Shown here in pieces: positions 5,236 to 56,004 of a DNA stretch of 64,000 nucleotides. The DNA lies in NCBI RefSeq assembly GCF_036365525.1, contig NC_090395.1:65869326-65933325 (forward strand), written 5' to 3'. The translations under genes and the position numbers were made by a program. The DNA is from Heterodontus francisci (lineage: Eukaryota). Each line of letters opens with the position of its first letter. Position 1 is the stretch's first letter. Below the pieces are notes generated by a model. It was not told the origin of the DNA, did not search any database, and saw only the letters and a list, made by a program, of their open reading frames with translations.

Positions 5236-5501
5236 ATGCCCTTTGGCACAAGCAAGGTGGGCAGAATGGCCTCCTTTTTATGCTATATGATTCTATAATA
5301 GTGACACCATTATATACCCATTCTTTAATGGGCTGAGCTGATACTATACTGATACAATTTACCATAAGGAATTTTTCATTGTGGCTTGAACTAAAAATAA
5401 CATTTGGCAAATTTTAGATTGAGCTGTCTTAGTTTAATAGTGATGTTAAACAGTTTTTAAAAAAATGTTCAGCAATTAACACAAAATCCATCATCCTTAC
5501 C

Positions 5502-5592
5502 TTAATTTTTCTTTGTCCACCACGTGCCTGAAATGGCACAAATCAGCAGGAATGCAAAGAGTATCCATCGTAGCCAATTCCAGATAACGTAG
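5502..5592 (-). CDS. Ig-superfamily receptor exon 5: transmembrane helix with Arg, then stop
   Basis: Acceptor ttttgatcag, phase 2. Reads (C)YVIWNWLRWILFAFLLICAISGTWWTKKN*. TAA at 5504-5502 is followed by G|GTAAGG (donor). The five exons sum to 894 nt = 297 aa + stop. Confidence 0.82.
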
Positions 5593-5777
5593 CTGATCAA
5601 AATGGACAAATATTAAATCAATCAATCAATGGGAGGGGAGAAATACTACAGGGTATAGGGATTTCTGGTGGCAAGCAATTTATCACTAGGAAACTGCTAT
5701 TTTCACTAGCTCCAGGACTTTTCATAGCATAAGTTCCTATGAAAAGCTTTCTATCAAACTATGTGTGGAAATTCATA

Positions 5778-6000
5778 GCACAGTGGTGCAGTGGTTAGCA
5801 CCGCAGCCTCACAGCTCCAGCGACCCGGGTTCAGTTCTAGGTAAAAGGGAATTGGCTAAATACTTGAAGGAGAAAAAATTGCAGGGATATGGAGAAAGAG
5901 CAGGGGAGTGGGACTAACTGAATTACTCTTCGAAAGAGCCAGTGCAGACTTGATGGGCCGAATGGCCTCCTTCTGTGCTGTACTATTGTATGATTCTATG
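5778..6000 (+). mobile_element. HE1 SINE head joined to a CR1 3' end
   Basis: 5778-5842 matches the head of the 6186 SINE and includes a B-box (gggttcagttct); 5843-6000 is CR1 C-terminus and 3' UTR. Confidence 0.7.
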
Positions 6001-6185
6001 ACCATCTCATTGCTGTTTGTGGGAGCTTGCTGTGTGCAAATTGGCTGCCGTGTTTCCTACATTACAACAGTGACTACACTTCAAAAGTACCTCATTGGAT
6101 GTAAAGCGATTTGTGACATCCTGAGATCATGAAAGGTGCAATAGAAATGCAAGTCTTCCTTCTTTTAACTTGCTTTAGAAGGGGT

Positions 6186-6510
6186 GGGTACAATGGCGCA
6201 GTGGTTAGCACCGCAGCCTCACAGCTCCAGTTCTGGGTACTGCCTGTGTTGAGTTTGCAAATTCTCCCTGTGTCTGTGTGGGTTTCTGCTGGGTGCTCTG
6301 GTTTCCTCCCACAGCCAAAGACTTGCAGGCTGATAGGTAAATTGGCCATTGTAAATTGCTCCTAGTGTAGGTAGGTGGTAGGAGAATGGTGGGGATGTGG
6401 TAGAGAATATGGGGTTAACGTAGGATTAGTATAAATGGGTGGTTGTTGGTCAGCACAGACTCAGTGGGCCGAAGGGCCTGTTTCAGTGCTGTATCTCTAA
6501 ATAAATAAAT
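6186..6510 (+). mobile_element. HE1-like V-SINE
   Basis: tRNA-like head (tggcgcagtggttagcaccgcagcctcacagc), V-domain (gtgggtttctgctgggtgctctggtttcctcccaca), CR1-derived tail (gggccgaagggcctgtttcagtgctgtatctct) and (AAAT)n. Confidence 0.85.
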
Positions 6511-7704
6511 TTATGACAGAATTTCACATAGTGCCAAAACAATCCTCATGATAAGGGAGAAGGAGTGCTGGCCCATTATGAGTTGTGTTTATAAGTACAT
6601 ATGTGAAAAACTATGATAAAGAGAAATGATGATACAGTGAGAGAAAAGTGATGCATTTTAGAGAAGAATCTGATATTTGCAGGATTGAAAAGATAAGCAT
6701 TGAAAGGGAAGTTAGGAGAGACCAGGCTAAACCAGAATTAGGATTAAAACTAGTGGGAGAGAAATTGGCCCGCGCTCGACTACAGGCACATATGAACACT
6801 AGGAACAACAGTAGGCTATTCAGCAAATTAGATCCTAGTTATTCTGTACCTAACTCCAACACAAAACGGGCGGCACAACTTTAACACAATGCAAACTATG
6901 TATAGTTTTTCACCAATTTCAGATCAAGGTCATAAAACTGACGAGAGGTCCCTGATCAGCATATGAAAGGGGGCTACCACCTGTTTAAGGTGGGTGTGAG
7001 GGATCTCTAAATACCTCCCGATCCAATTTCACATTCAGCGTACTTTTGGCATTATTGGGGTGCAGGCCTTAGTGCACTGAAATTGGATAGTTGATGTCCA
7101 TTTTACACCTGATAAATGGCAGCTGTTGTATTGGCTTCAAGGACTGCTCACCTGTTGATGCCCCCTATTCACCTTGTTTCCTTGATACACAGTTTTCTCT
7201 GGTTGCTCAATTAAATCAATTGGAAGGCCTCAATCTATAGCAATATTATGCAGCATACAGAAAACACTAACTTTTTTCCAACCTTCCATTGGAATTCATC
7301 TCCTGAGTGGCCAACCATATAAAGCACTAACTCAGAATCTCAATTATTTGCTCAGTAAGAGCACAAGCTGAGACAAGGGCATCACTCTATCCTTGCTTGG
7401 CTCTGTATGGGAATTGGTGCACAGGTACGAGCAGCCTTGGTTGCTCCATAAACTTATGTTTTGCTGCCAAGGGAACTGAGCATTAACTTGCACGATTTTC
7501 ATCTGTGCATCAAACACCAGCACATTGATTCAATGGAGTTCCTTTTGATTGATGTCAAGATTGTGATTTAGTGAATGAATAGCCAAATGCATGCAGAGAA
7601 TGATGCCCTGCATCTTTGAGAACCAACAAACAAAATAAAAAGCAAACATCCTTAGCTGCTGTTTCTGTTTGGTATTGGTGAATGTATGTATCCATGTGCA
7701 GGTG

Positions 7705-9030
7705 TTTGGAAGTCTTCTGTAATGTCCCTTGTGATAGAAGGTGTCATCACAATGCTATCAAGCGACACTTTCTCAGCAATAACCTGCTCATCAGTGTTCA
7801 GTTTGGATTCCACCAGAGCCACTCGGCTCCAGACCTCATTACAGTCTTGGCGCACATCAGGACAAAAGAGTTGAATTCCAGAGGTGAAGTGAGAATGAAT
7901 GCCCTTGACATCAAGGCAGCATTTGACCAAGTGTAGCATCAAGGAGCTCCAGCAAAATTGAAGTTAGTAGGAATCGGGGGAAAACTCTCCACTGGCTGAA
8001 ACCATACCTAGCAAAAAAGAAGATGGTTGTGGTTGTTGGAGGCCAATAATCTCATCCCCAAGACATCACTGCAAGAGTTCCTCAGGGTACTGTCCTAGGT
8101 CCAACCATCTTCAGCTGCTTCATCAATGACCTTCGCTCCAGCATCAGGTCAGAAGTGGGGATGTTCACTGATGATTGAGCAGCGTTCAGTACCATTCATG
8201 ATTCCACAGATACCGAAGCAGTCCGTGTCCAGGTGCAGCAAGACCTGGACAACATTCGGGCTTGGGCTGATAAGTGGCATGTAATATTCATGTCACACAA
8301 GTGCCAGACAACCAGAGAGAGAATCTAGCCATATGCCCTTGACATTCAACATCTTGACCATTGTTGAATCTCCCACCATCAACATCCTGGGGATTACCAT
8401 TGACCAGAAACTTAACTGGACCAACCATATAAATACAGTCGCTACAAGAGCAGGTCAGATGATGGAAATTCTATGGCTAGGAACTCACCTCCTACTCCCC
8501 AAAACCTGTCCACTATCTAAAAGTCACATGTCAGGTGTGATGGAATACTCTCCATTTACCTGGATGAGGGCAGCTCCAACAACACTTTAGAAGCTTGACA
8601 CCATCCAGAACAAATCAGTCTGCTTGATCAGCACCCCTTCCACCACCTTAAAACATTCACATGGTGGCAGCAGTATGAACCATTAATAAAATGCATTGCA
8701 GCAATTCACCAAGGGTCCTTTGACAGCACCTTCCAATCCCACAGCCTCTACTACCTAGAAGAACAAAGGCAGTAAACGTATGGGAACAGCACCATCTGTA
8801 AGTTTCCCTCCAAGTCATATACCATCCTCACTTGAAATATATCGCTGTTCCTTCACTGGGTCAAAATCCCAGAACTCCCTCCCTAACAGCACTGTGGGTG
8901 TACCTACACATATGGACTGCAGCAGTTCAAGAAGGCAGTTCACCATCACCTTCTAAAGGGCAATTAGGAATGGGCAAAAAATGCTGGCCTTACCAGCGAT
9001 GCTCCTATCCATTGAACGAATTTTTAAAAA
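7705..9030 (+). mobile_element. CR1/L2-group LINE (second family), RT and 3' end
   Basis: QFGFHQSHSAPDL, ALDIKAAFD, VPQGTVLGPTIFSCFINDL, FTDD, ILGITIDQKLNW; 3' end aagggcaattaggaatggg. Confidence 0.88.
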
Positions 9031-9644
9031 AGCAATTAGCAGCATTTCCATTGACTCCTGAGATATCTGCCACTCGGTTCCTGGAAGGTATATAAATGTT
9101 GAGAGTTATGGTGACTATAAAACTTTACCCAACAGCACAGTTTAACTGATGACTGCTTCTTCAAGTCTTTTGGGAGCACATCATGTAGATTAATCCAAGA
9201 AGTCTTTGTTCAGTTTTAGCCTTTCCTTGTCTTTAAAATTCATAAAACTACATCTAGTTTAGTAATGCTTCGCTCAGGGGTAATTTGTCCACACCATGGT
9301 GTGACTCACGTGACCCCAGTACACCTGAACGCTGTTTCTTCCATCTATCTCACCTGGTGTCATGACGCTTGCCTATAAAATACCCTGTAACAGTGCAGTT
9401 CTTCTTTTCCCACTTGTAAAGTTAATCCTTCATTTAGAAACTAACACCTACTAATCAACCCTAAGAATATCAACACATTTTTCTTGCAGTTCCAAATCAC
9501 CATGACCATCGCAAGTTGCAACAAGCTTGAACACACATTACTTTCAGAGCCCAATTGTTGTTTTTACATTGCACATCAACCATTATAATATTTGAGGAGT
9601 TCATAGAATTGTGCTAAAACTGAATTTGTGTCCATTTAGGGCAA

Positions 9645-10005
9645 CAACGACACCAATTTGTATTTATATAGTTCCTTTAATGTAATAAAACTTTCCAAGG
9701 CACTTCATAGGAGCATTATAAAGCAATATTTGCCATCGAGCCATATAAGGAGACATTAGGAAGCTGACCAAAAGCTTGGCCAAAGAGGTAGGTTTTAAGA
9801 AGCATCTTAAAGGAGAAGAGAGAGAGCGAGGTGGACAGGGTTAGAGAGGGAATTCCAGATCTTAGGGCCTTGGCAGCTGAAGACACGGCTGGCAATGGTG
9901 AAGCGATTAAAATTGGGTTGCTCAAGTGGCCAGAATTAAATGAGTGCAGATACCTGGGAGGGTTTTGGGGGGGGTTGGAGGAGATTGCAGAGGTAGGGAG
10001 GGGTG
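9645..10005 (-). mobile_element. L2 LINE 3' fragment
   Basis: FSFKMLLKTYLFGQAF C-terminal motif and the L2 3' UTR. Confidence 0.8.
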
Positions 10006-10128
10006 ACAGAACATTTATTTACGGCATTCTATGCACAAAAATTCTTAACCATATGACCAATTAGGAAAATACAGGCCTCTGAAGGCAATCATAAATTTTT
10101 CACTCTTAGCAAAACTAAAGGGATATAC

Positions 10129-10249
10129 CAATCATCGACAACAGCAGTGGCATGAGAAGTACTTTCATGAATTGTTGTTTGTTCATTAGTGCGATCAGGC
10201 TTCATGCCTGTATTTATTGGAAAATCTTCACAAGTGTAGAGCATATTTC
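10129..10249 (-). CDS. Ig-superfamily receptor exon 4: Ser/Thr-rich stalk
   Basis: Strong polypyrimidine acceptor tttttttgtcctattttag; 121 nt, phase 1 to 2, exactly the phase needed to link exon 3 to the TM exon. Reads GNMLYTCEDFPINTGMKPDRTNEQTTIHESTSHATAVVDD; donor GTATAT. Confidence 0.75.
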
Positions 10250-10773
10250 CTAAAATAGGACAAAAAAAATACATACTTATTTATACCAGTGCATCTCCCA
10301 TTGTAGTGTGCCATAAAATAGCGGGGGCTAAAGTGATTAGCCCTTGAAAATGGGATTGGGAATTGCAATATGCGAATAATCCGTGCCCGTTCATTTGTAT
10401 TGAAGCAGGACGACAACTTCTTGCTGCCTGCTCATGGTAGTTTCTACATGCAGCCGGAGTTCAGATCGCTATTAATTGGCTGCACGCATCAGAGAGGGGC
10501 CCAATCTGGGCACTTCCTAGCACCACTTAAAGTTGCACCTCTTAAAGGGAAAATGCATTGTGGCTGCTGGAGGTGTTGAGATTATTGGGAACAGTGCCAT
10601 GCAACAATCGCACCTGCACGTGTCACCCTCATGGTATAAGCATGCACTTCTTACTTTCTCCTCTCCCCTCACCACAACCCTACCCTTGTCCCTTTTACCT
10701 TTCACATACCCAAGAACTGCAACCTGCCCAGGTAGTGGAGGAATAGCATGAAGACAGTGAAGATTAAGTCATA

Positions 10774-11400
10774 GGGCTGGATTTTTGTGCAGCTGTCAGG
10801 GGATCCCGCCTCCAAGAACTGCCAGCCAATCAGAAGGCCGGCAGCTTAGCAGACCCAGCAGCACCACCAGGAGCAGTGGCCACTGCTGGAACTGTATCAG
10901 GCAGTTGAAGAGGAACAGCCATGGAGCCTAGACTAAAAGTAAGTGGCAGCGGGTTCGCTGGGCCCATTCTGGCAGGCCCCGGGGTTGGGTGGCAGTGGGG
11001 GGGTGGGTTAGTGCAGACAGTGGGGTGGGTGATGAAAGATGGGTGACCCTTGCCACCGGGAGCCCTCCGTGGGCCACGGATTTCCCATGGAGGAAGGCCC
11101 TCTCCACCCAAGCATGCAGGGAGACCACCTTGAGTTACTGGGTGACCTCCCCACATGGCAGAGGGTGCCCCCGCCCCATCCCCCGCTGCTGGTAAAATAC
11201 CAGCGGCAGCAGGAAAAGGCTCTTAAGTGGCCATTATTTGGCCACAAGGGCTTCAATTGGCCTCTGGGCGGAAAGCCCATCATTAGCCTTCCCTGCCTGG
11301 ACTAACTTGGAAGGCGGCAGGCACTCTGCCCCCTTGCCTTCCCTTGCAATTTTATGGGCCCCGTCACTGTTCCTGTCCCTAGAGGGCCCATAAAATTGTT
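10774..11400. mobile_element. GC-rich MITE, same family
   Basis: Starts GGGCTGGATTTT and ends ...TAAAATTG; shares gccagccaatcagaaggccggcagc and cttaagtggcc motifs. Confidence 0.72.
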
Positions 11401-11819
11401 CGATTTTACAGTTACAGCCACCAGCTCAGATACTGACAATGTGCCTAGTTTAAAGGATAGTATAGAGGCAGGATCCGCATGTGGTGAGACACCGGGGACA
11501 AGTGCGCTACAGCTAATGTAGGGGGAAATGGTAGCACAGGAGCCAGCTCACCAGAGGACAAGATCGCACATTATTTCTGCTGCAGAGGACAAGATGAGTT
11601 TGATGGGCCAGGCTACTGAAGAAAGCTGATGGGTGTACAAACACATATGCTTGGTGCACCAGGAACTCTGCTGGAAGGTTAGCCCTCAATATCTATGATC
11701 ATGGAGGAATCCAGTGCTAACTTAGCACAGAGCTTTGCACAGAACTTGGGCCTCATCCTTTCCAACATGACTTGGGTGGCATTTCCATCAACACACTTGG
11801 GGAGCCAACAATGAGCCAG

Positions 11820-13308
11820 CCATATATTCACCATAAGTGCTAATATCATTGTTGTGTATTCAGATAATGAAGGAGTCCATACCCGTATGCAGCATAACCC
11901 GGATAATAATCAGGCTTGGGCTGCTAAGTGACAAGTAGCATTCACACCACACAAGTACCAGACAATGAACATCTCCAACAAGAAATAATCTAACTACCTC
12001 TCCTTGGCAATCAACAACATTAACATCGCCAAACTCCCACAGTTCCCCCTCCCCAACCGCCATCAACAAACTGAGGGTCACCACTGACCAGTGTCAAGCA
12101 AACCCCCACCTACCCAGACTGAGGCACACATTATTTCGACACATGAACATTAAAACTTAAAGTTGCAAGCCCTGACTGGAAGGACATTTGCATAGTACTA
12201 GCAGTGTTGGAACAATGGGGACCCAGTCGTTGCTTCCAGAAGAAGTGGTCAGACCAGTTTCAGTCACATGACTAACTGGCTGTTGCAGAGAATTTGAACT
12301 TCCAACAAAGGATTTTGATCAGAGACAAAGCCATGTGCTCATGAAGCAAAGCTCTCTCCTGGAACCAAAGTAAGAAGACCTCTCTCCTGCCTGCTCCCAT
12401 CTCCTTCCCATGAAACTGAATCTTGTGAAAACACGTGAAACTCAAAGAGAGAAAAGTTTCCTATGTGAACAAGGTTTTAAGAAGACAACTGGGCCCCAAC
12501 AAAAAGCAAGACTACTTACAAAAGGACTACAGTGAGCTTGAAGTATCATAACAAGATATTGCCTCAAACTGTTCCACCTTATCTTTTCTTCTCTTTTCTG
12601 TTCCCCTATCTGCATGTGTATATCATGTGTGCATGCTAGCGTGGGCACGTTGTATATCCGTAGGCGTGAACCGTATTAGAGTTTAAGTTTTAATAAAATT
12701 TCATCTTTCTTCTTTAAACCTGAGAAAGCCTGTGTGAATTGGTTTATTTGTCTTATAATTGGAAAACTGTGAAAAAGGATTCACAAAAAAGGGAGCTCAA
12801 AACACAGTGTGTTTAAAATTAAACGCTGTTACGCTAAGACCAGGGGAAGATAGTAATAGACCCCTAGACACATTTCTCACCTGGTCATAACACCAGAAAC
12901 TTAACTGGCCCAGCCACATAAATACTGTGGCTGCAAGAGCAGGTCAGAGGTGGGCTAATCTGTGGTGAGTGACTCACCTCCTGACTCCCCAAAGCCTGTC
13001 GGCCATCTACAAAGTAAGAGTCAGCAGTGTGATGGAATACTCTCCACTTGCCTGGATGAGTGCAACTTCAACAACACTCACAAAGCTCAACATCATTCAG
13101 GTCAAAGCAACCCGCTTGATTGGCATCCCATCTATCAAGAATGCATAGTGGCAGCAGTGTGTACCATCCACAGGATGCACTGCAGCAACTTTCCAAGGCT
13201 TCTTTGACAAAACCTTCCAAACCCATGGCCTCTGCCACTTAGAAGAGCAAGGACAGCAGGTGCATGGGAACACCACCAAGTTTCCCTTCAAGTCACACAC
13301 CATCCTAA
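11820..13308 (+). mobile_element. Fragment of the same LINE family, split by a solo LTR
   Basis: Sequence matches 8250-8830 on both sides of 12092-12892 (accactgaccag|...|ccagaaacttaactgg). Confidence 0.8.
12092..12892. mobile_element. Solo LTR (801 bp), Gypsy-like
   Basis: TG...CA termini (TGTCAAG...CATAACA) with an exact 4-bp TSD, CCAG, at 12088-12091 and 12893-12896. Confidence 0.82.
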
Positions 13309-13439
13309 CACATTTAATCTCATCAAAATTGATTTTAATGGTGTAAATATGCCAGTAAATAGGTACAAATGATTGGTTTTATTTTAGTGTTCAGTTGATG
13401 AGAGATAAAACAAATGATTCAAAGGTAAAGAACACTTAC

Positions 13440-13760
13440 CAGTCTTGTTGATCTCCACCAAAAATCTACAGTCCTTCTCTGCTGCCTTTACGAGTGATAC
13501 TTTAAGCATTTCACTCGATGTTGTGCCTTTATTGTTTGAGGCAGTGCAGTAATATTGCTGATCCTCAGAGATATGCTTGCAGTATAGATGCAGGTTATTT
13601 GATTGAGAAATCTTGGAATCGGTGCTTTGCATCTTTTTATACCAAGCATAAGTGATAGGGAGGGACCCTTTGAGTGATTCACACAAGACTGACACTGGGC
13701 CTCCAATGCACGAAACATTTGACGGACGCACAAATTTAAGAAGTGGCTCAGATACGATTA
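13440..13760 (-). CDS. Ig-superfamily receptor exon 3: C2/I-type (FcR-like) Ig domain
   Basis: Acceptor ccccacag; 321 nt, phase 1-1; donor GTAAGT. Reads VSEPLL..GGPVSVLCESLKGSLPITYAWY...QYYCTASN; the GSLPITYxW motif resembles FCRL/PECAM-type domains. Confidence 0.9.
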
Positions 13761-14419
13761 CTGTGGGGTGGGGAAGAATAAAAAGTCTATTAGACAACAA
13801 TGGAAACTGGCAATGAGTGAGTGGGTTAATTTCCTGCATCATAAAATATATCTGTCTGTTTGAGCTGATCATTTTTCTTGAAATAAAAAAATTGCCCATT
13901 CAAATTTTACCTTTTTTAAAAAATTTCTGTGCAATTGTTGATTAGGGCACAATATTCATCATCTCATCAGTTTTAACTTGAAACTGCTTCTTTATCATAA
14001 TCTGTCTGCCCCAAAGTCTCAAAATGCCCTCTGCCCAAGTCCTTTAAATATGAACCCAGTGGCATTTCAGATAGGCGCCTTACTGCTCCACCCAGGGGCA
14101 GTCTGGCAGAAAACCTTTCTGGCTGTTCCCTGACTGGAAGGCCTATCTTCAAATGACAATCCATTTCCTTGGAGTGATAATTATTTGAATGTGGTGCTGG
14201 GCTCACATACAGCCCTGTACATTCGCTTTGTCAGGCATACTCACTGGCTGTAAAGGATGCTTAACTGGCGGGATTTCCTAGCGATCCTAACATGCCCAAA
14301 AAGTGACATTGGAACAGAGGGAGGGTGAAAAAAAACAACTGTCCCTCCCCCATTGGTATCGCTGCAGCTCCCACACCCCACCCCTCCCCAAATACTGCAG
14401 CAAGAGAAACCCCAAAGAA

Positions 14420-14790
14420 ATACACACCCTACATCCTTTCTGTAATACGGATACCAAAACTGAACAGAGTACTCCAGGTATAGCTTCACCAAGGCCAGAT
14501 ACAACTTCAACATAACCTCTTTTTAACTTATAAATCACATCCATAACCACACATCCCAGCATTTTATTTGTTTTCTTAACCACCTGTGAACACTAAACTG
14601 ACCATTTCATCCATGAAACACCCCAGAGCTTTTTCTTGCTCTATAATTTAATCATATACTCCACATTATTGCTTCTTTAACTTAATCTCATGACTTTACA
14701 TTTATTCATGATGAATTCTATCTGCTGCTTCTCTGTACTTTGACCTGACTGTCCAGGCCCTCTGGATATCTTGGACAATATTCTGTCCTT
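14420..14790 (-). mobile_element. Decayed CR1 fragment in intron 2 of the Ig receptor
   Basis: LYLALVKLYLEYSVQFWYPYYRKD motif. Confidence 0.7.
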
Positions 14791-14860
14791 TAAGTGAAAG
14801 CAATCAAAAACAAATGTTGGTAGTATAGTATAATAAGAATAAATGGCTAAGAGAAAACAC

Positions 14861-15181
14861 CGTCAGATATTTGTAGATATACAGCAAACATTGGATCGAA
14901 TCCAGTCCTCTTGATACCACAGTTGTACCATCCTGTATCTGCTGAAGTAAGATTCTTCATAGTAACAGCAAATATTCCTTGTGTCGTGTAATCTTTAATT
15001 GATACTCTTCCTTGCCACCCAATCTGCATATTGGTATCAACTACTGTCGTACAACTAGTGCGATACCACTTATGGCACCAGTATTTCCTGTATGATTCAT
15101 ATCTCTGTTTGTCGTAATAGCAGTATATTGTAACTGTTCTTCCCACAACTCCTGTTGCATTTTCTTCTGCCCACAAGGCAC
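14861..15181 (-). CDS. Ig-superfamily receptor exon 2: V-set domain of CD300/pIgR type
   Basis: Acceptor ttagtttcag; 321 nt, phase 1-1; donor GTGTTT. Reads GRTVTIYCYY..KYWC..SC..GRVSIKD...FAVTMKNLTSADTGWYNCG. Canonical B/F-strand Cys plus the extra C-C' Cys pair typical of CD300/TREM/pIgR V domains. Confidence 0.93.
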
Positions 15182-15934
15182 CTGAAACTAAGAAGATATT
15201 ATTTCAGGAATTAGATTTATTAATTGATTCCTTAATGCATGCTAATATCTTGTCAATTGATATATCGGCCTATCATATTAAATGTCTTGCATCTATTTGT
15301 GCTTCCTATTTGTCACATTTATGTCCCATTGTTATGCTTACACTGTAATATTTTGTTGATTGGCTTAAAGTAGAACAGCAAAAAATAAGAATTGAAGAAG
15401 TGGAGAATGCATGAATAAAAGCAAGGTAAGTGGCTAGAAAAATGCCAATGAGTAACCAGTAAAGATTTAAAGAACCATAAAAGAAACAGCGCAGAAAAGG
15501 GCTATTTGTTCCATCATGCTTGCATTCCTCTTTGCTAAAGAAATCCAAAATCAATTTCCCTGCTGTCTCCCCATAGCCTTCCATCGTCTTCGGTTTCAAA
15601 TATTTAACCAATTTCTGGCTTAGACACTACTAATGCAAAGCACTCCATGTTCCAACAACCCTCTGTGCAAATGGTACATCTCATTCTCTAACTGTGGCTG
15701 AACAAATGTTTTGCATAAATTAATCAATACTTCATTGTGATTTATAAAGCCTAAAATTCTATTAGTATTTTTTATGTTCCTCACTCATACATTCAGGGAA
15801 CTGTGTGTTTGATCCCCAGCCTTATTAAATTGTCTTAAAGTGCCATATAAAACAATGTTGGAAAATATTCAGATTTTTTAAAAATCAAAATGTACCATCT
15901 TGTATTTACTGGCTTTATAGGATCATAGGAATCT

Positions 15935-18140
15935 TAAGAAATAGGAGCAGGAGTAGGCCATTCAGCCCATCGAGCCTGCTCTGCCATTCAAACAGATCAT
16001 GGCTGATCATCTACTTCTACGCCATTTTTCCCCACTATCCCCATATCCCTTGATATCGTTAGTATTCAGAAATCCATCGATTTCTGTCTTGAACATGCTC
16101 AATGATTGATCTTCCACAGCCCTCTGGGGTAGAGAATTCCATAGATTCATCACTCTCTGAGTAAAGAAATTCCTCCTCATCTCAGTCTCAAATGGCCTGC
16201 TCCTTATTCTGAGACTGTGTCCCCTTGTTCTAGACTCACCAGCCAGAGGAAACATCCTATCCACATCTACCCTGTCACACCCTGTAAGAATGTTGTAAGT
16301 TTCAATGAGATCACCTTTCATTCTTCGAAACTCTCGAGAATACAGGCCCAATTTCTGCAATCTCTCCTCATAAGACAATCCCGCCATCCCAGGGATTAGT
16401 CTGGTGAACCTCCGTTGCACTCCCTCTATGGCACGTACATCCTTCCTTAGATAAGGAGACCAAAACTGTACACAATACGACAGGTGCGGTCTCACCAAGG
16501 CTTTATACAATTGAAGCAATACATATTTACTCTTGTACTCAAATTCCCTTGCAATGAAGGCCAACATACTATTTGCCTCTTAACTGCTTGATGCACCTGC
16601 ATACTAGATTTCAGTGACTCATGAACAAGGACACCCAGGTCTCTTTGGACATCAACACTTCCCAACCTCTCTCCATTTAAGAAATACTCTGCCTTTCTGT
16701 TTTTTCTACCAAAGTGAATCAATTCACACATATTCACATTATATGCCATCTGCCATGTTCTTGCGCATTCACTTAGCCTGTCCAAATCCCCTTGAAGCCT
16801 CCTTGCATTCTCCTCACAACTTACATTCCCTTCTAGTTCTGTGTCATCCACAAACTTGAAATTATTACAATTGGTCCCCATATCCAAATCATTTATATAG
16901 ATTGTAAACAGCTGTGTCCCAAGCACTGATCCTTGCAGTACCCCACTAGTAACAGCCTGTCATCCTGAGAATGACCCATTTGTTCCTGCTCTCTGTTTTC
17001 TGTCTGTTAACCAATTCTCAATCCATTGCAGTATATTACCCCAATCCCATGTGCTCCAATTTTTGTTTACTATGCTACAAGTAACATCCTCAAAAAACTC
17101 CCAACAGGCTTGTCAAACATGATTTTCCTTTCACAAATCCATGTTGACTCTCCCCAATCATATCATTATTTTCCAAATGTCCAGTGATTTCATCCTTTAT
17201 AATAGATTCTCACATTTTCCCGACTACTGATGTCAAACTAACAGGTCTGCAGTTCTCTGTTTTCTCTCTCGTTCCCTTCTTAAATAGTGGGGTTGCATTT
17301 GCTACTTTCCAGTCTGCAGGAACCCTTCCAGAATCTGTAGAATTTTGAAAGATAATCACCAATGCATCCACTATCTCTATAGCCACCTCTTTCAATACTC
17401 TGGGATGTAGCTCATCTGGTCCAGGGGATTTATCAACTTTCAATCAAATTAATTTTCCAAGTACTACCTCTTTATTGATACTAATTTCGTTCAGTTCCTC
17501 ATTTTTACAAGTCTGTTAGTTCCCTAGTATTTCTGGGAGATTTTCTGTGTCTTCCTCCATGAAGACAGACACAAAGTAATTATTTAGTCTCTCTGACATT
17601 TCCTCATTCTCCACCACAAACTCTCCTGTCTCCGCCTGTAATGGACCTACATTCGTCCTTGCTAATCTTTTCCTTTTCACATACCGAAAGAAGCTTTTAC
17701 AGTCCAAGTTTATATTTCTAGTTATCTTAGATTCATAATCCCTTTTCCCTTTCTTTATCAGTTTCTTGGTCCTCCTCTGTGGGAATCCAAATTGCTCCCA
17801 ATCCCCGTGCTCACCACTTTTTCTGGTGACCTTTTTCCTTTGATCTAATGCAATCCTTAACTTCTTTTGTTAGCCACGGTTGATTCATCTTTCCTGTTGG
17901 GTTTTTGTTTCTGAGAGGAATGTATATTTGTTGTAAACTGTGTAATAGTTCTTTAACTACTAGCCATTACTTGTCAAATCTTTTAATGTATTTTCCCAAT
18001 CCACTATAGCCAACTTGTCCCTCATACCTTCATAGTTTCCTTCGTTTAAGACCCTAGTTTCAGATGAACTACATCTCTTTCAAACTTAATATAGAATTCT
18101 ATCATATTGTGGTAACTATTTCCTAATGGCTGCTTTACAT
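15935..18140 (-). mobile_element. CR1 LINE (HER1-like), decayed
   Basis: RT ORF pieces ([48 protein letters not shown]) and a CR1 3' end. Confidence 0.92.
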
Positions 18141-18629
18141 CAAGGTTAAATTTCATCGCCTGCACTATTTGTTCCTTTTTATCAATATCTGCTTGCACCA
18201 AAAGCAGGTAAGGATTGCATTAGGTCAAAGGAAGTGGCTTTTAAGGTCACCAGAAAAAGTGCTAAGCTCGAGGATTGGGAGCAACTTAGAGTCCAAAAAA
18301 AGAGGACCAAGAAACTGATAAAGAAAGGGAAAGGGATTATGAATTATTTTCTATGCCTCCAATTTTAGCATCCTCTGTAAATCTGGACATCATTCTTTGT
18401 TGCCTAAGTCCAAATTAATAATGTACACAGTGAATCCCAGAAATGAATCCCATGGGACACCACTACCCATTTCAAAGCATTCTGCATTTAGCTTCTACCA
18501 CGTTTCTTCCCTCCTAAGCAGTTTTTAACCTACTATGCTACCCTCTAATAGTTGTAGCTATCTTTCCCTCACTGCATTGCCATCATATGTTCTCACCCCC
18601 TTTTAAGGAATGCCTGGGTTGGAGTCCAT

Positions 18630-19369
18630 GGCTGGAATTTTCCGTTGGGCGAGAGGCCCCATCCACCGGCCAAAATGTTGCTGGCGAGCCTGGCTCCACC
18701 GGGCCTGGGGAGCCAGACCGGGATTTTGCGCTCCCCAGGCCTTTAATTGGTCTTTGGTGGGACTTCCACCTCCTTGAGGCAGGAAGTCCAACCTAATGGA
18801 GCTGCCGGCCAATCAGCAGGCTGGCAGTTCTTAGTCCCAGCAGCTCCACTGGGAGCGGTGGCCACTGCCAGGACTACACCCAGCCATTGGAGGCAAAAAG
18901 AAGGATAGGCCCGGAAAAAAAGGTAAGTTTTTAGGGCCTCCCCGGGGACAATCGGTCGGGCCCCAGCAAGGCAAGGGGGGTTGGTTAGGGGGGCGGGGGC
19001 GTGTTGTGCATTGGGGAAGTTGGGGCTTCCGAGGCAGCCCTCCATGGGGCACAGGATGCCCTATAAGGAGGGCCCCCCACCAGCCCGCAGGAAGGCCGCC
19101 TGGTTTTACGAGGCGGGATTTTTGAGGCCTTAGCCGCCTGCCGGCCAAGGGGAAATTACCCATGGCGGCAGGCGGAGGCCCTTAAGTGCCGGATAATTGG
19201 CCACTTAAGGCCCTTGATTGCCATGGGGAAAGCAGGCTGTTTGTTGCTGCCCCGTGTAAAATTGCCACCACCATCCCCCCACCACTGCGCGCCCCACCCC
19301 CACCCCCACCACCACCCCCGCCTCCATAGCCACCAGCCTGCTTGTTTGGGGGATGTAAAATTCCAACCC
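18630..19369. mobile_element. GC-rich MITE (PIF/Harbinger-type TIRs)
   Basis: Imperfect TIRs GGCTGGAATTTT...AAAATTCCAACC; non-coding; internal motifs shared with the copies at 383, 10774 and 32655. Confidence 0.75.
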
Positions 19370-20204
19370 ATATGACAGCACATGGAGTGCCTTCATTCTC
19401 TCAACTGTCTTAAAGAGAAAATGCGCATAACCAAAGTACCACCTCAATCACCCAAGGTTCCTGCTGCAAATTGTCAGCCCAACACCTCAGAACCTCTTGC
19501 CAGAGAAATAGAAGGGTGGGGAATTGAAATGGTACAGTGGTCTTAACAGTGCCAGTGGGATAATGTTGTCACCGATGTGATATGTGTGGAATGATTTGAG
19601 GCAAGGGAGAGGAATGCCTGCACAAAAGGCAGAGCAGCATGATTTCTAAAAAGAAACCTTGGCAGCTGTGGAGGAAAGCTACATGTTAACACATAACTGA
19701 GTTAATTGGCCAAGGGTGGAGTTTTTTTTGGTAAGGCTCAGCTGATAGCCAGCTCAGATCTTGGTTGAAAGTCTCCCTTATGCTGTGCCCTTGGTTGTCT
19801 GGCAGCTGGCACAAGTTAATCAGTGCTTAATGAGGGAGGCAAAATGTGTATCATGGCTTAATGGGTAAGAGTGAGGTTTCCCTTGTTTGGACTGCAGATA
19901 TGGAGACAATAGTTCCAGCAGGCAGGAACAAGAGTTGTAAAATTTCTCTGTTTATCCTGGGATGTCTTTAGTGGATTCCCTGATGCACCTCTTCCTCCTC
20001 CTCAAAGCAGAGAAATGCAGAAGGCTTAAGGAGAAACCATTGGTATCCAAGGACCATTTTCCAGAACTAAACTTAAAAAATCTAAAAAACTTAAAAAACC
20101 TTTTCAAATACTTTTAAAATTTATATATATTATATATAGTTACACTTAAAAAACTCTTTAAAAATTAAATATACTTAATAAATCTGTAAATCCTATTCTA
20201 AATA

Positions 20205-22930
20205 AACATAAAGTCATAAGGTCATAAGAACTAGGAGCAGGAGTAGGCAATTCAGCCCCTCGAGCCTGCTCCGCCATTCAATACAATCATGGCTGATCTT
20301 ACCTCGGCCTCAACTCCACTTTCCTGCCCATTCTCCATAACCCTTCAACCCTTTACTAATTAAAAATCTGTCTATCTCCTCCTTTAATTTACTCAATATC
20401 CCTACATCCACCGCACTCTGGGGTAGTGAATTCCACAGACTCACAACCCTTTGAGAGAAGTAATTTCTCCTCATCTCTGTTTTAAATCTACAGCCCCTTA
20501 TCCTAAAACTATGACTTCTCGTTCTAGATTGCCTCACAAGAGGAAACATCCTCTCTACATCTACTTTGTCAATCCCCTTAATCATCTTATATACCTCAAT
20601 TAGATCTCCTCTCACTCTTCTAAACTCCAGAGAGTAAAGGCCTAAAGTGCTCAATCTCTCTTCATAAGATAAACCCCTCATCTCTGGAATCAATCTAGTG
20701 AACCTCCTCTGAACTGCCTCCAATGCAACTATATCCCTCCTCAAGTAAGGGGACCAAAACTGTACGCAATACTCCAGGTGCTGTCTCACTAACACCTTGT
20801 ACAGTTGCAGCAACACTTCCCTACTTTTATATTCTGTTCATTTAGCAATAAATGCCAAAATTCCATTTGCCTTCCTTATTACCTTCTGTACCTGCAGACT
20901 AGCTTTCTGCGATTCATGCATGAGGACACCCAGATCCCTCTGCACTGAAGCCTTCTGAAGTTTCTCTCCATTTAGATAATACTTTGCCTTTCTATTCTTC
21001 TGACCCAAGTGGATAACCTCACACTTATCCACGTTAAACTCCATCTGCCAAATTTTGGCCCATTCACCTAACCTACCCATATCCATTTGTAGATTTCTTA
21101 TTTCTTTATTGCAACTTACTATCCCACCTATTTCAGTGTCATCTGCAAATTTGGCTATAGTACCTTCTATCCCTGCATCCAAGTCATTAATATATATTGT
21201 AAATAGTTGTGGCCCAAGGACAGAACCCTGTGGCACCCCACTAGTTACATCTTGCCAACCAGAAAAAGACCCATTTATCCCGACTCTCTGTTTTCTGTTG
21301 GTTAGCCAACCCTCTATCCAAGCTAATAAATTGCCACAACCCCATGTGATTTAACCTTGTGTATTAACCTTTTGTGCGGCACCTTATCAAATGCCTTCTG
21401 GAAGTCCAGATATACTACATCTACAGGATCCCCATTATTCACTTTGCTTGGTACGGCTTCGAAGAACTCTAGCAAATTAGTCAAACTCGATTTACCCTTC
21501 ATAAAACCCTGCTGACTCTGATGGATTGTGTTTTTCTAAATGTCCTGTTATTACTTCCTTAACAATGGATTCTACCAATTTCCCAACAACAGATGTTAAA
21601 CTAACTGGTCTGTACTTTCCTACTTTCTGCCTCCCTCCCTTTTTGAATAAGGGCGTTATATTAGCTTTTTTCCAATCCATTGGAACCTTTCCCGCATCCA
21701 GGGAATTTTGGAATATTATAACCAGTGGATCCACTATCTCCCCTGCCACTTCCTTTAAGACCCTAGGATGTAAGCCACCAGGCCCTGGGGACTTGTCTGC
21801 CTTCAATCCCAATAGTTTGCTCAGTACTTTTTCCCTAGTAATGATGATTTTTCTAAGTTCCTCTCTTTCTATAACCTCTGCATTTCCTGTTACTGTTGGG
21901 ATGGTACTAGTGTCCTCCACTGTAAAAACTGAGGCAAAATACTGATTTAGTGTTTCCGCCATTTCTGTGTTCCCCTCTATTAACTTCCCAGTCTCATCCT
22001 CCAAAGGACCAATATTCACTTCAGCTACTCTCACCTTTTTTATACTTATAGAAGCTTTTGCTATCCATTTTTATATTTTCCTTTAGTTTTCTTTCATAAT
22101 TTACCTTTGCTCTTTTTGTTACTTTTTTAGTAACCCTTTGTTGATCTTTAAAAGTTTCCCAATCTTCCAGCCTGCCACTGGCCTTTGCAATATGGTATGC
22201 CTTAATTTTTGTCTTTATGTTATCCTTAACTTCCTTGCTTAGCCATGGATGTTTTTTCCCCTCTTAGAATCTTTCTTCCTCTCTGGAATATATTTTAGTT
22301 GGGAGGAATTGAATATCTCCTTAGTGTGGGACTCCAGTTTCTCGCCCTCAAACTGAATTTTAAATTTTAACATGCTATGATCACTCTTCCCTAGAGGATC
22401 CTTAACTATGAGATCATTAATTAATCCCACCTCATTACACAATACCAAATGTAGAAAAGCCTGCTCCCTGGTTGGTTCCACAACATATTGCTCCAAAAAA
22501 CAATCTCTAATACCTTCAATGAGCTCTCTCTCGAGGCTACCCTTGCCAATTTGATTAATCCAGTCTATATGCCTATTAAAATCACCCATGATTATTGCAG
22601 TACCTTTCTTACAAGCCCTCAGTATTTCCTGGTTTATACTGTGCTCCACTGCAGAACTACTGTTTGGGGACCTATAGATTACTCCCACCAGGGACTTCTT
22701 TCCCTTGTTATTTCTTATTTCTATCCAGACTGATTCTACGTCTTGATCTCCAGTGCCTATATCGTTTCTCACTACAGCACTGATCTCTTCCTTTACTAAC
22801 AAAGCTACACCTCCTCCTTTTCCTTCCTGCCTATACTTCCAAAATACTGAGTACCCTTGGATATTCAATTCCCAAACCTGGTTTCCCTGCAACCACGCCT
22901 CAGTAATCGCCACTAAATCATACCCATGCT
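20205..22930 (-). mobile_element. CR1 LINE with APE endonuclease and RT, decayed
   Basis: ORFs 22239-22913 (GGGVALL, MGDFN, LGKSDH), 21492-22034, 20838-21236 (PQGSVLGP, FADD) and 20310-20816. Confidence 0.93.
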
Positions 22931-23719
22931 TTCAAATTGTTCCAAGCCCCTTGTGATCTTTAGCTATGAAGACCTCTGGCCCATCACCATGTCCAAACAT
23001 CAGCAGGAAATAGGGGGAGAAAAGGGGTCATTCAGGAGACTTATCTACCCACTCTCATTTGTGTGCAGCTGAATAAGGATGCAGCAGGCGTCAATTGACA
23101 TGCCCAGCACACCTGAGGTAAATGACTGTGTGCATTTTTCAGGATGAGGATCCCATGATAGGCTTCACCTCCTGATTTCTCTGTTGGCCAACCCAGGCGC
23201 ATTTGAAATGGACAGCAAAACTGAAGAAAATCTCAATTTATTCTTCCCCTTAGGCACCCACTCACATTTTAATGCACGCATCTCTTTAAGTTTGATCTGC
23301 TGTCCTTATTTCCATAAACCTCGATGAGAGTGGCACCCTACACTAGACCTCTAAGCTGTACAGGCAGCTATAAATAATTGTTCAGATAAGCTGACCACAG
23401 GAAATTTTGAGTGGTCAGCTTAGTGTGCTGCAGGCCAGCTTTGCAGCAGCAACTAGATGGAAATTATAAGCTTAGCCTGCGCTAGAAACTTAGTACTATA
23501 TTGTTTTAACATGACAAAATTGCTTAACAAGAAGCTAAAAGATTATTTAGATTTCAATAACTGAAATGTTGCTGTGAAACTTGGTATTTTCTGATTACAG
23601 TTGTGTCAATTGACTACATTGGCCGCAAAAGAATATTTTATTTTGTTTTTTTCCTCAGGCTCACTGAATAAAACTGACATTCTGGTGATCGGTTTAACTG
23701 GATTAGAAGTGTTACTTAC

Positions 23720-23759
23720 CCGGCAAAAAACAGATCAGAACAATCAGAAAATGCTGCAT
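23720..23759 (-). CDS. Ig-superfamily receptor (CD300/pIgR/MDIR-like), exon 1: signal peptide
   Basis: ATG at 23759 reads MQHFLIVLICFLP+G (40 nt, phase 1), followed by a consensus donor GTAAGT. It joins in frame to the V exon, giving ...FLPGALWAEE, a typical leader. Confidence 0.85.
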
Positions 23760-43289: not shown

Positions 43290-43880
43290 TGCTGCGCCCA
43301 GGTGTGGCCGCAGGTGAACTACAACTCCCGCGGTGCCTTGCGCGATGACGGTTTCCGGTTGGCGGGAGGGGGAGGGAAGGTTTCCGGTTTTCGAGCCTAA
43401 CCGTCGCGGATCGCGCTGGCCGCTCGCTCGAGCAGTTGGGTTTGAATTCCTAACGGTCACCGGGTCAAACTTTTCTTTTATTTTCCTCTCCTTCTTAAAG
43501 CGCTTGGGAGGTTTAATGACTTGACCGAACAGAACAAAGGAAAAAAAAAACTTGTTGCACCGTCTGTGAGGGAGGGTCTGGTGTCCTCGGGCTCCGCACC
43601 GGGAGAATTTCTGATTTCCCCCCCCTATCCTGCTCCGGTCCGGCCTCTCTCCGCTCTCTCCGGACCCTGAGCTTCGGCTCTCCCGGCTGCCAGGATGGGC
43701 TGCACCATGAGCGCCGAGGACAAGGCGGCGATGGCGAGGAGCAAAATGATCGACCGCAACCTGAAGGAAGACGGCGAGAAGTCGTCCCGGGAGGTCAAAC
43801 TTCTGCTACTCGGTAAAACAAAACACATTTTTGAGGCTGGAGCTTTGGTTTTCACCGCCGAGGGTGCATCCGAGATTGCA
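43290..43880 (+). promoter_or_regulatory. CpG-island promoter of the GNAI gene
   Basis: CpG-dense, no TATA seen. ACTACAACTCCC (ZNF143/THAP11-type motif) at 43318-43329; TTCCGG ETS cores at 43353-43358 and 43382-43387; half-CRE TGACG at 43346-43350. Confidence 0.8.
43695..43812 (+). CDS. GNAI3: G protein alpha-i subunit, coding exon 1 (probably GNAI3)
   Basis: [39 protein letters not shown]+G; 118 nt then a GTAAAA donor, the conserved length of GNAI coding exon 1. Gly2/Cys3 lipidation motif is intact. Gi family is near-certain; the paralogue (i3 versus i1/i2) is an inference. Confidence 0.85.
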
Positions 43881-53900: not shown

Positions 53901-54777
53901 GCTGTCGTGGTTCTTCAGGATCCCTACCCTGCCAGAAGGTGGTGTAGTCTTGCTCTCTTAGATATCCGCTCGCTGGAAGGCGTGTCTCCTGAAGTGCTGT
54001 AATGTCCACATTGAGTCTAATGAGCTTGTTGTTAATGATGGCGATCTTCCGAGCATTGTTGATTTGTGTAAGGTCTTCCGACACGCCAGGGCACACAGTT
54101 CTGACGTTCCAACTTGCAAACGAAGGGCTGGTACCTTTTTTTTTTTTGTCGTGCTGTTTGTTGCGGTGTTACAGTCCACTTGTCGGGTAGTGACCCTGAG
54201 CTCCAAGCACCCATTGATGCAGGTGGACTGTGGTGGGACAGAACCTTGCAGCCTCCGGTCAGTCCGGTTTGAGTCGGGCGGTAGCTGTCCAATGAGATGC
54301 GATGACCTCTCCCACCAACAAAGGCAACCCGTAGCGCCCAATCTCTATGCCAGTTGAGCTGGGCTTATAACCCGTAACTGCTGCCTTCCGTTTTGCTTTG
54401 GTCGCGGTGAGGTAACTATGGAGTGACCTCTCCATGGCGCATGCCTGGGTGGATGTACGGAGGTTGTGAATTGCCCAAGCGTCAAAACCCCCCCCTCTCG
54501 ATCTTCCTGGTGGGGTCCAAAGGAGTGCAGAGCAGTACGTTTGGCACCGGTATGGCTGCAGGAACTGCCAGAAACATGCCAAAGGTGACACAGGACCCCC
54601 TTCGGGGTTCTGCTCCGGATTTTCTGTTAGGGTTTGCTCCCTTAGCCTTGGTCTCTCCCAAGATGCCCACAAGGCAGTGGGGTTGTTAGGGCCCCTGCTC
54701 AGGGAGAGGTAGGGGGAGGGGGCGCGAGGGGAAGATGGTGCGAGAGGGGAGCTGGGAAGGGGTATATAGGGTGTTAC
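50930..54777 (-). mobile_element. RTE-clade LINE, near full length, frameshifted
   Basis: APE endonuclease (ALQETR, SIYAP, LLGDFNARVG; ORF 52915-54096), RT motifs (KAPGKDG, QCGFR, AFIDLTKAFD, YLGS, LLYGSEAW) and an (AAG)-type 3' tail. TTCATAAT is duplicated at 50922-50929 and 55200-55207. Confidence 0.93.
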
Positions 54778-55193
54778 AATGGCGTCCCCTACATATAGAG
54801 CTTCGGTCTTGTCAGCTGCCAGATGTTTGAAGATCTTTGAGATCAGGATTGGCATCTTGTTTTCCCTGCCTCCCTTGATGCTGATCCCCAGGCCCCCGAC
54901 TTCGTGCTTGATTACCTTGACGCTTTGTTTCTTGTTGCTGATGGTCTCGGGGATTTGTTCCGGGAGCTCGGTGTAGGCATTGCGGATCCCGATGGCTTTC
55001 GGACTGCGGGACCGGGCTGAGGACTTTGCGTGCCGGCTCCGTTGGTGAGACCATTTCAGGCGGCGGGGTCCCCTGGCTGCTCGCAGCTCAGAATGAGATT
55101 CTCCTGGTTCAGAGTGGCCAGCACACAGAGCCAGCTGTCCCTGACTAAAACTTCCAGCAGCCCACTTCTCTCCAGCCTGCTGACTAACGCCAT
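54778..55193 (-). pseudogene. SNTB1: Beta-1 syntrophin 5' fragment (ATG, PH1a, most of PDZ), fused to the 5' end of an RTE LINE
   Basis: [21 protein letters not shown]...AA* (TGA at 55058-55056), then a frameshift, then [81 protein letters not shown], LPEQxPExISN and ALYVGDAI fit SNTB1 better than SNTA1/SNTB2. Confidence 0.9.
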
Positions 55194-56004
55194 CTTTTTT
55201 TCATAATAGTGGTTATAAAAGCTTTAATAATGCTGTATCTATGCAAACCATTATCAAAATGCAAAGAAAATCTCAATTTCCAGGCCTTTTTTCTGTTAAC
55301 AGTTCGGTTCATTGTTGCATCTATACTGATGTCATGTCTTGCTTGAGAAAAGAAGACTTGAATGCTATCACTCCCGTTTCTGTCACGTGAATTCAAAATG
55401 ATATCCCTATTTTGGTAACAACACTACACTCAATCTCTTAATTTGTAAGATTTTATGATAGTTGTAATTTCTACAGTTCTACCAAAGATAAAAGATTAAA
55501 GTCCGTTGCTAAATTTTTAGATCTGATTTGCTTAAATGGGTATTTTTTGGATTATGGAAAGGTTGGAAGTGGTGTACCTCAGCTAGGTCCACTTTGTGTG
55601 TGTGTGTACACAGAAGCAGACCTATCTATCGCATTTTTTAGGCCACTTTTAGCTTGCATATAAAAAAAAAGCCAGGAGTTACAAAATGTCCATGTAAGTA
55701 ATGTTATGTTATTGAGCTATGAAACTGAGTTACTTATTATTCTGCTATTGATCACCTAAGAACATAAGAAATAGAAGCGGTAGACTGACTATATTGCCTC
55801 TTGAGCCTTCTCTGCCATCCAATACAATTATGGCTGATCTGCCTCAACTCCACTTACTCGCCAGGTCCCCAAATCCCTTGATTCCCAAGAGACCAAAAAT
55901 CTGTCCATCTCAAAGGTCAGGTGGCATCTGTGGAGTGAGAAACAGAGTTAACATATCTGCCAGCTCTGAGCAGAGCTCCTCCTTACTCCTTGACAGTGAC
56001 AGGA

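What the first reader, a model, noticed from the sequence alone, without database searches (positions are those of the whole stretch)
5502..23759. Complete tailless V-C2 immune receptor with a transmembrane arginine (activating type)
Seen: five phase-compatible exons give an intact 297-aa protein; the leader and TM exons are invisible in the ORF track. It joins a CD300/pIgR-type V domain to an FcR-like C2 domain. The TM (IWNWLRWILFAFLLICAISGTWW) has Arg near its outer end, and the tail is only TKKN. Known: Arg in this position recruits FcR-gamma/CD3-zeta in FcaRI, GPVI, NKp46 and activating LILRs, whereas activating CD300s mostly use a central Lys with DAP12. Skate MDIRs are modular receptors of this general kind. 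Inference: a shark activating receptor, possibly binding Ig or lipid, with a domain mix not typical of mammalian CD300/PIGR.
Basis: partly seen in the sequence, partly recalled or inferred. Interest (0 to 1): 0.75.

Follow-up and report, generated by a model that had tools for sequence, protein, structure and literature searches.

The report
Shark activating MDIR immune receptor
This is an intact horn-shark gene of the known MDIR immune-receptor family, matched exon for exon in catshark, whose conserved membrane arginine likely recruits an activating signalling partner and whose outer domain is predicted to bind lipid rather than antibody.

Summary
Five minus-strand exons give a stop-free 297-aa leader-V-C2-stalk-TM protein ending in TKKN (299 aa with an acceptor 6 nt upstream). 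Leader and V match a truncated 149-aa RefSeq model from Heterodontus francisci; the full-length form was not among the database hits. A catshark protein has the same layout and end, and is its sister in V and C2 trees.

It is a member of the MDIR family, not a new domain mix: skate MDIR2 has the same V-C2 ectodomain (57%/51%) and MDIR5 the same Arg-bearing TM exon. Among 91 close relatives with a TM, 44 carry the Arg and 39 instead carry ITIM-like tails: a paired family. The Arg sits at about TM position 3-5, the FcR-gamma/CD3-zeta position, but coupling is untested and one survey found no FcR-gamma in sharks. The V domain keeps the CD300lf calcium/lipid-pocket residues and lacks the pIgR Ig-binding loop, favouring lipid over Ig. 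A V-C2-Arg counterpart exists in ray-finned fish, so the design is probably ancestral to jawed vertebrates. The scan noted this TM class before in other shark genomes. New member of a known kind; modest interest.

The parts
23720..23759 (-). Exon 1, signal peptide (13 codons + 1 nt), strong phase-1 donor
   Evidence: 13 of 13 residues identical to RefSeq XP_067913702.1
14861..15181 (-). Exon 2, CD300/pIgR-type V domain; alternative acceptor at 15187 adds two residues; weak donor
   Evidence: exact-match 251-nt contig 14862-15112 in run X1
14895..14897 (-). Asp codon equivalent to the calcium-binding Asp98 of mouse CD300lf
13440..13760 (-). Exon 3, FCRL-like C2 domain with extra family cysteines, strong donor
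   Evidence: exact-match 179-nt contig in run X1
10129..10249 (-). Exon 4, stalk (phase 1 to 2), begins with the family's Y-x-C-E motif; weak donor
   Evidence: 120 letters of a 200-nt contig of run X2 match it exactly and leave the genome at both exon ends
5501..5592 (-). Exon 5, transmembrane segment, TKKN tail and stop (5502-5504), then one base and a strong donor
5568..5570 (-). Transmembrane Arg codon (8th full codon of exon 5; 19 residues before the first cytoplasmic charge)
12978..13064 (-). Repeat-derived intronic stretch that the truncated RefSeq model uses as an exon; not part of the full-length receptor
   Evidence: very high repeat depth over it in all four runs

Best explanation
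It is an intact single-module (V-C2) member of the chondrichthyan MDIR paired-receptor family, of the tailless arginine class, and it likely signals by pairing its membrane arginine with the aspartate pair of an ITAM adaptor dimer of the FcR-gamma/CD3-zeta type after its V domain binds a ligand that is predicted to be a lipid head group held with calcium. Shown: exon structure, family membership, orthologue in catshark, Arg conservation and position, retention of CD300lf pocket residues. Inferred: full-length splicing to the TM exon, surface expression on leukocytes, adaptor identity (about 0.75 that it couples to an ITAM adaptor), lipid ligand (about 0.5), activating output balanced by ITIM-bearing paralogues.
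For: MDIR2 has the same single V-C2-stalk ectodomain (V 57%, C2 51%) and MDIR5 the same TM exon (41%, Arg kept); best mammalian V match only 39%. Of 124 close relatives among 259 fetched proteins, 91 have a TM: 44 with the Arg (43 scored plus P0194, misfiled by the script), 39 without Arg but with ITIM-like tails, 8 other; only 2 of the 44 have a loose ITIM-like match. With the Arg column masked, 56 of 56 TM hits above 25 bits have Arg and none scored 10-25. Arg-to-cytoplasmic-charge spacing is 19 in 35 of 46 distinct TMs; ITIM-class spans are mostly 21-23, which puts the Arg at about TM position 3-5; Fc-alpha-RI uses Arg at position 3 for Fc-gamma (PMC1440944, passages); amphibian NxxR TMs associate with FcR-gamma (PMC2413239, passages). 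V keeps CD300lf Tyr34, Cys36-Cys44, Gly96, Asp98, Pro99, Met100; CD300lf takes the top nine fold matches (TM-score 0.88-0.91). Window and catshark P0016 are sisters in V (99/94) and C2 (100/99) trees and share the WTKKN stop. One contig appears to join C2 to the stalk exon.
Against: No binding or signalling test exists for this protein. A 2014 genome survey found no FcR-gamma chain in cartilaginous fish (PMC4016189, passages); CD3-zeta (cd247) is present as a T-cell marker in bamboo shark (PMC11372145, passages). The Asn of the NxxR motif is present in only 4 of 46 family TMs, so the match to mammalian NxxR is not a family trait. The seeds of the masked profile were chosen on Arg-Trp, and Arg and ITIM classes are two inherited exons, so the counts are not independent events. 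Three CD300lf pocket positions differ (Trp89 to Asn, Arg42 to Thr, Gln41 to Arg). RefSeq models the locus as a 149-aa protein without C2 or TM and two donors are weak. The V tree's support for one chondrichthyan clade is only 91/79.
Confidence: 0.68

Rival explanations
1. The Arg is an interfacial anchor (snorkelling between Trp residues) and the protein is a non-signalling capture, adhesion or decoy receptor that competes with the ITIM paralogues for ligand.
For: The Arg is flanked by aromatic residues at -4, +1 and +4 in nearly all members; 20 of 46 family TMs carry a second basic residue at -3 and only 4 have Asn there; no shark FcR-gamma in one survey. Recalled, not read: the original MDIR paper described MDIR5 as lacking a typical activating motif.
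Against: Arg, never Lys, in 56 of 56 masked-profile hits, as expected from Fc-gamma's preference for Arg; a mere anchor should tolerate Lys. The 17-residue core after the Arg is short and less hydrophobic (mean 2.2 against 3.0 in the ITIM class). Lys at -3 in many members marks the outer boundary and leaves the Arg inside.
Confidence: 0.14
2. It is an activating Fc receptor for shark IgM, IgW or IgNAR, working like pIgR domain 1, Fc-alpha/mu-R or FCRL5.
For: V resembles pIgR domain 1 (46-54 bits; TM-score up to 0.88); best solved C2 matches are FCRL5 domains 4-8 and FCRL4; databases label many relatives pIgR-like or FCRL-like.
Against: CD300lf scores higher (69 bits); the V-N-R-H CDR1 of pIgR domain 1 (seen in the alignments; its role in Ig binding is recalled) occurs in 0 of 216 family V domains; the C2 match is weak (best domain 25.9 bits) and to the repeated membrane-proximal FCRL5 domains. 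Fc-mu-R binds IgM without that loop (recalled), so Ig binding is not excluded.
Confidence: 0.13
3. The gene is decaying or mainly yields truncated, secreted transcripts, and the 297-aa product is rare.
For: RefSeq XP_067913702.1 truncates V, uses a repeat-derived exon and ends by reading through the stalk donor; weak V and stalk donors; intron 1 carries LINE insertions; an exact intronic contig is present beside the exon contigs.
Against: All five exons are open and 51-75% identical to the catshark orthologue, with the same stop; the V contig runs through the point where RefSeq truncates V, and the stalk contig leaves the genome at the predicted donor instead of reading through.
Confidence: 0.1

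Closest known systems
MDIR2 of clearnose skate (ABC86796.1, P0221)
   Same: Leader, one V, one C2 with the same extra cysteines, stalk; V 57%, C2 51% identical.
   Different: Uncharged TM and a long tail with tyrosine motifs (inhibitory class).
MDIR5 of clearnose skate (ABC86800.1, P0208)
   Same: Same TM exon with W-x3-R-W, Arg 19 residues from the cytoplasmic charge, no ITIM.
   Different: Two V-C2 modules and a roughly 20-residue tail; the window gene has one module and stops after TKKN.
Scyliorhinus canicula P0016 (313 aa, auto-named 'PECAM-like')
   Same: Same five-part layout and WTKKN end; sister in both trees: probable orthologue.
   Different: Stalk 4 residues longer; C-S-S in place of W-N-W before L-R-W; a database prediction, not a studied protein.
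Mouse CD300lf (CLM-1; PDB 6C74; PMC6166816)
   Same: Best solved match of the V domain by sequence and fold; calcium Asp98, Gly96, Met100, Tyr34 and the CC' disulfide kept.
   Different: Single V domain, no C2, inhibitory tail (recalled); Trp89, Gln41, Arg42 not kept.
FcR-gamma-coupled Arg receptors (Fc-alpha-RI, GPVI, NKp46, LILRA2, OSCAR; Xenopus XFL TM1)
   Same: [quoted passage not shown]
   Different: C2-only ectodomains (recalled); NxxR is conserved there, but Asn is rare in the MDIR class; homology of the TM exons not shown.
Unnamed V-C2 receptor of bony vertebrates (gar XP_015197915, arapaima, teleosts, caecilian, toad, crocodilians)
   Same: Same V-C2 order and cysteine pattern, 30-41% identity in the three compared; R-W TM without ITIM in 15 of 16 ray-finned fish records.
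   Different: A separate clade (V 100/99); none of the 4 tetrapod models examined shows a complete Arg TM (one has an R-W remnant).

Membership tests
MDIR | V-type domain related to CD300/TREM/pIgR | tested here: met
   48-57% identity to the six MDIR2/3/5 V domains reported; family description in PMC3031540 passages.
MDIR | MDIR-type C2 domain in V-C2 modules | tested here: met
   46-53% identity to five MDIR2/3/5 C2 domains; inside the clade holding them, 96/94.
MDIR | Family TM exon: charged/short-tail or uncharged/ITIM | tested here: met
   Same TM exon as MDIR5.
MDIR | V domain nests with named MDIRs to the exclusion of bony-vertebrate and mammalian relatives | tested here: inconclusive
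   38-row chondrichthyan group at 91/79, below the starred threshold; midpoint root, 106 columns.
MDIR | Part of a clustered multigene family | not testable with these tools
   No genome held; tblastn with 12 relatives shows one copy in the window. An earlier AI note places another MDIR gene 221 kb away (unchecked).
MDIR | Relation to MDIR1 and MDIR4 | not tested
   Neither appeared under that name in the three homologue searches; the original paper is not held.
CD300 (mammalian) | Single V ectodomain without C2 | tested here: not met
   A C2 exon is required for the TM frame only via the stalk, and is conserved in the orthologue.
CD300 (mammalian) | CC' disulfide and CDR3 calcium Asp of the lipid pocket | tested here: met
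   three other pocket residues differ.
pIgR / Fc-alpha/mu-R | Domain-1 CDR1 V-N-R-H motif | tested here: not met
   0 of 216 family V domains.
pIgR / Fc-alpha/mu-R | Binds polymeric Ig | not testable with these tools
   Needs a binding assay.
FcR-gamma/CD3-zeta-coupled activating receptors | [quoted passage not shown] | tested here: met
   against PMC1440944; position estimated from charge spacing, not from a membrane structure.
FcR-gamma/CD3-zeta-coupled activating receptors | Arg-dependent assembly with the adaptor dimer | not tested
   No shark adaptor sequence was obtained; no complex prediction was run.

The most novel reading that the evidence does not exclude
A tailless V-C2 receptor with an outer TM arginine and a CD300-type calcium/lipid pocket already existed in the last common ancestor of jawed vertebrates. 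Sharks and rays multiplied it into the MDIR paired family, while ray-finned fish kept an unnamed conserved counterpart and some tetrapods kept the ectodomain. It would be the ancestral activating lipid sensor, and if sharks truly lack FcR-gamma it would signal through CD3-zeta.
Probability: 0.35. Interest if true: 0.55.

Novelty: new member of a known kind. Interest (0 to 1): 0.3.

Why it matters
It corrects a truncated annotation and gives a compact, single-module, orthologue-anchored MDIR that is easy to test. MDIRs are barely studied (1 paper in the library names them with skate or CD300), and their adaptor and ligands were not found in my searches. Testing this one would say whether Arg-based ITAM coupling and CD300-like lipid sensing date to the origin of jawed vertebrates. 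A specialist would not be surprised by the gene itself.

Tried and rejected
Own-genome search: no genome held. Run search: no RNA holder listed; all five rows are only guessed to be RNA. Other candidates for exon 4 were dropped: repeat-like or without homology; only 10249-10129 matches the orthologue. Skipping the stalk exon breaks the TM frame. An ORF at 2148-2429 that looked Gla-like has no Pfam match. Cannon et al. 2006 is not held; what I say of it is recall. Searches for shark FcR-gamma gave one negative survey and no positive paper (finds); a later catshark report of the chain is recalled only (its reference seen). No complex prediction was run for want of an adaptor sequence. dN/dS could not be computed (no catshark DNA). 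Earlier-findings look-ups near this place and by C2 sequence were empty. Synteny from the G-alpha-i neighbour could not be resolved to a paralogue from one exon.
Full report
Observation. The gene lies on the minus strand. Boundaries read from the sequence: leader 23759-23720, V 15181-14861, C2 13760-13440, stalk 10249-10129, TM and tail 5592-5502. Phases are 1, 1, 1, 2; joined they give 894 nt, 297 aa, no internal stop. Pfam gives V-set (E 3.7e-11) for exon 2 and Ig_2/Ig_3/Ig_C17orf99 for exon 3. The stalk exon was the only uncertain one; of the candidates listed only 10249-10129 matches a relative.

Source and annotation. P0118, RefSeq XP_067913702.1 'CMRF35-like molecule 2' of Heterodontus francisci, is identical over the leader (13 of 13) and 86 of 86 V residues, so the window is horn shark or nearly identical to it. 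That model is 149 aa: it truncates V, uses a repeat-derived intronic exon and ends by reading through the stalk donor. No full-length version of the window protein was listed in the three homologue searches.

Transcription. Four runs, only guessed to be RNA and held as contigs, were laid on 10050-15260. Two runs of one sample hold exact-match contigs: 14862-15112 (V), 13522-13700 (C2), 14141-14307 (intron) and a 200-nt contig whose letters 78-197 equal 10248-10129. That run's depth in bin 13356-13529 is 1.46, which equals 3.3 x 77 / 174, so its first 77 letters lie on the C2 end; I infer a C2-to-stalk splice, since the joint row itself was among 178 not shown. Its last three letters do not follow the intron, so the weak stalk donor appears to be used. 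Depth figures do not measure expression. The junction to the TM exon was not examined.

Orthologue. Catshark P0016 has the same layout and the same WTKKN end; per-exon identity is 62, 68, 75, 51 and 62%; the two are sisters in the V tree (99/94, 60 rows) and C2 tree (100/99, 42 rows) built from 39 chosen proteins of the 259 fetched. In the V tree the pair groups with chimaera domains (96/93). Open exons and a shared stop in two shark orders argue for a working gene.

Family. The profile search returned skate MDIR2, MDIR3 and MDIR5. MDIR2 is leader-V-C2-stalk with an ITIM-type tail; MDIR5 carries the W-x3-R-W TM. Window identities: V 57% and C2 51% to MDIR2, TM 41% to MDIR5, against 39% to a rodent CD300f V. 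So this is an MDIR2-type ectodomain on an MDIR5-type anchor. Of 259 fetched proteins, 124 are at least 44% identical to the window V or C2; 33 have no TM in the model, 44 have the Arg TM, 39 have an uncharged TM with ITIM-like motifs and 8 are other (P0194 moved by hand to the Arg class; isoforms and near-duplicates not removed). These are two inherited exons, so the split shows a paired family, not 83 independent events.

The arginine. With columns -1, 0 and +1 masked, all 56 hits above 25 bits among 260 sequences have Arg and nothing scores between 10 and 25; seeds were picked on Arg-Trp, so this shows only that no Arg-less version of the exon was fetched. The Arg lies 19 residues before the first cytoplasmic charge in 35 of 46 distinct TMs; ITIM-class spans are 21-23 in 31 of 39, which places it at about TM position 3-5. 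Feng et al. (PMC1440944, passages) show Fc-alpha-RI uses Arg at position 3 for Fc-gamma, that Arg-to-Lys impairs assembly and that DAP12 prefers a central Lys. Guselnikov et al. (PMC2413239, passages) show NxxR TMs of Xenopus XFLs associate with FcR-gamma. The window has N-W-L-R, but Asn occupies that place in only 4 of 46 family TMs, so the NxxR likeness is incidental. Against: Akula et al. (PMC4016189, passages) found no FcR-gamma in shark genomes of 2014; cd247 is used as a T-cell marker in bamboo shark (PMC11372145, passages); I recall a later catshark report of the gamma chain but saw only its reference.

Ligand. The V domain's best solved relative is mouse CD300lf (69 bits; pIgR domain 1 46-54), and CD300lf fills the top nine fold matches of an AlphaFold model (pLDDT 95). 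Nelson et al. (PMC6166816, passages; supplements not read) place calcium on Lys94 and Gly96 carbonyls and Asp98, and phosphocholine in a cleft of Cys36-Cys44, Tyr34, Gln41, Arg42, Trp89 and Met100. By the alignments the window keeps Tyr34, Cys36, Cys44, Gly96, Asp98, Pro99 and Met100 and differs at 41, 42 and 89. Across 216 distinct family V domains Asp98 is kept in 75% of first domains (n=115) and 36% of later ones (n=100), and none has the pIgR V-N-R-H loop. Lipid is the better guess; Ig is not excluded. The C2 is closest to FCRL5 domains 4-8 (best 25.9 bits) and probably acts as a spacer (inference).

Beyond sharks. The unindexed search and look-ups found single V-C2 proteins in gar, arapaima, teleosts, a caecilian, a toad and crocodilians. 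They form their own clade (V 100/99). Fifteen of 16 ray-finned fish records examined carry an R-W TM without ITIM (some are isoforms; the sixteenth is short); none of 4 tetrapod models has a complete one. The design is therefore probably as old as jawed vertebrates. I found no paper on this bony-vertebrate gene or on MDIR adaptors in the held library; the only paper naming MDIRs was PMC3031540 (passages). The library lacks most subscription journals, including the original MDIR paper. PMC6795676, PMC10529500 and PMC9321927 (passages) added nothing on this family.

Mechanism, marked. Shown: intact five-exon frame, MDIR membership, catshark orthologue, conserved outer Arg, no tail, CD300lf-like pocket. 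Inferred: full-length transcript and surface protein; calcium-dependent binding of lipid on dying cells or microbes; assembly with an ITAM dimer through the Arg; activation offset by ITIM paralogues with similar ectodomains.

Verdict. Real gene, correctly read, new member of a known family; the scan's earlier notes describe the same TM class in other shark genomes. Interest 0.3.

Noticed in passing
window 43695-43814 (+): First coding exon of a G-alpha-i gene, head to head with the receptor about 20 kb from its leader; paralogue not resolved. It could anchor synteny of the MDIR cluster's edge.
   Followed up: partly
window 54259-55200 (-): Stretch with a partial PDZ domain that reads like a syntrophin fragment without introns (name recalled); likely a retrocopy remnant in the G-alpha-i intron.
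   Followed up: partly
window 16000-18100 and 20230-22930 (-): Two CR1-like LINE pieces in intron 1 of the receptor; the second has endonuclease and reverse-transcriptase Pfam matches.
   Followed up: partly
window 51045-54168 (-): Another broken LINE with an endonuclease domain.
   Followed up: no
window 5501 downward (-): Strong donor one base after the stop; candidate acceptors for a 3' UTR exon at 5069, 3361 and 633. The stop sits where relatives continue into a tail exon, and catshark shares it.
   Followed up: partly
P0133, P0113, P0144, P0145, P0149, P0240-P0255: An unnamed, conserved V-C2 receptor of bony vertebrates, with an R-W transmembrane segment in ray-finned fish; sister group to the shark family. 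Worth its own study.
   Followed up: partly
family V domains: The calcium Asp is kept twice as often in the outermost V domain (75%) as in inner V domains (36%) of multi-module members, suggesting only the tip domain binds the CD300-type ligand.
   Followed up: partly
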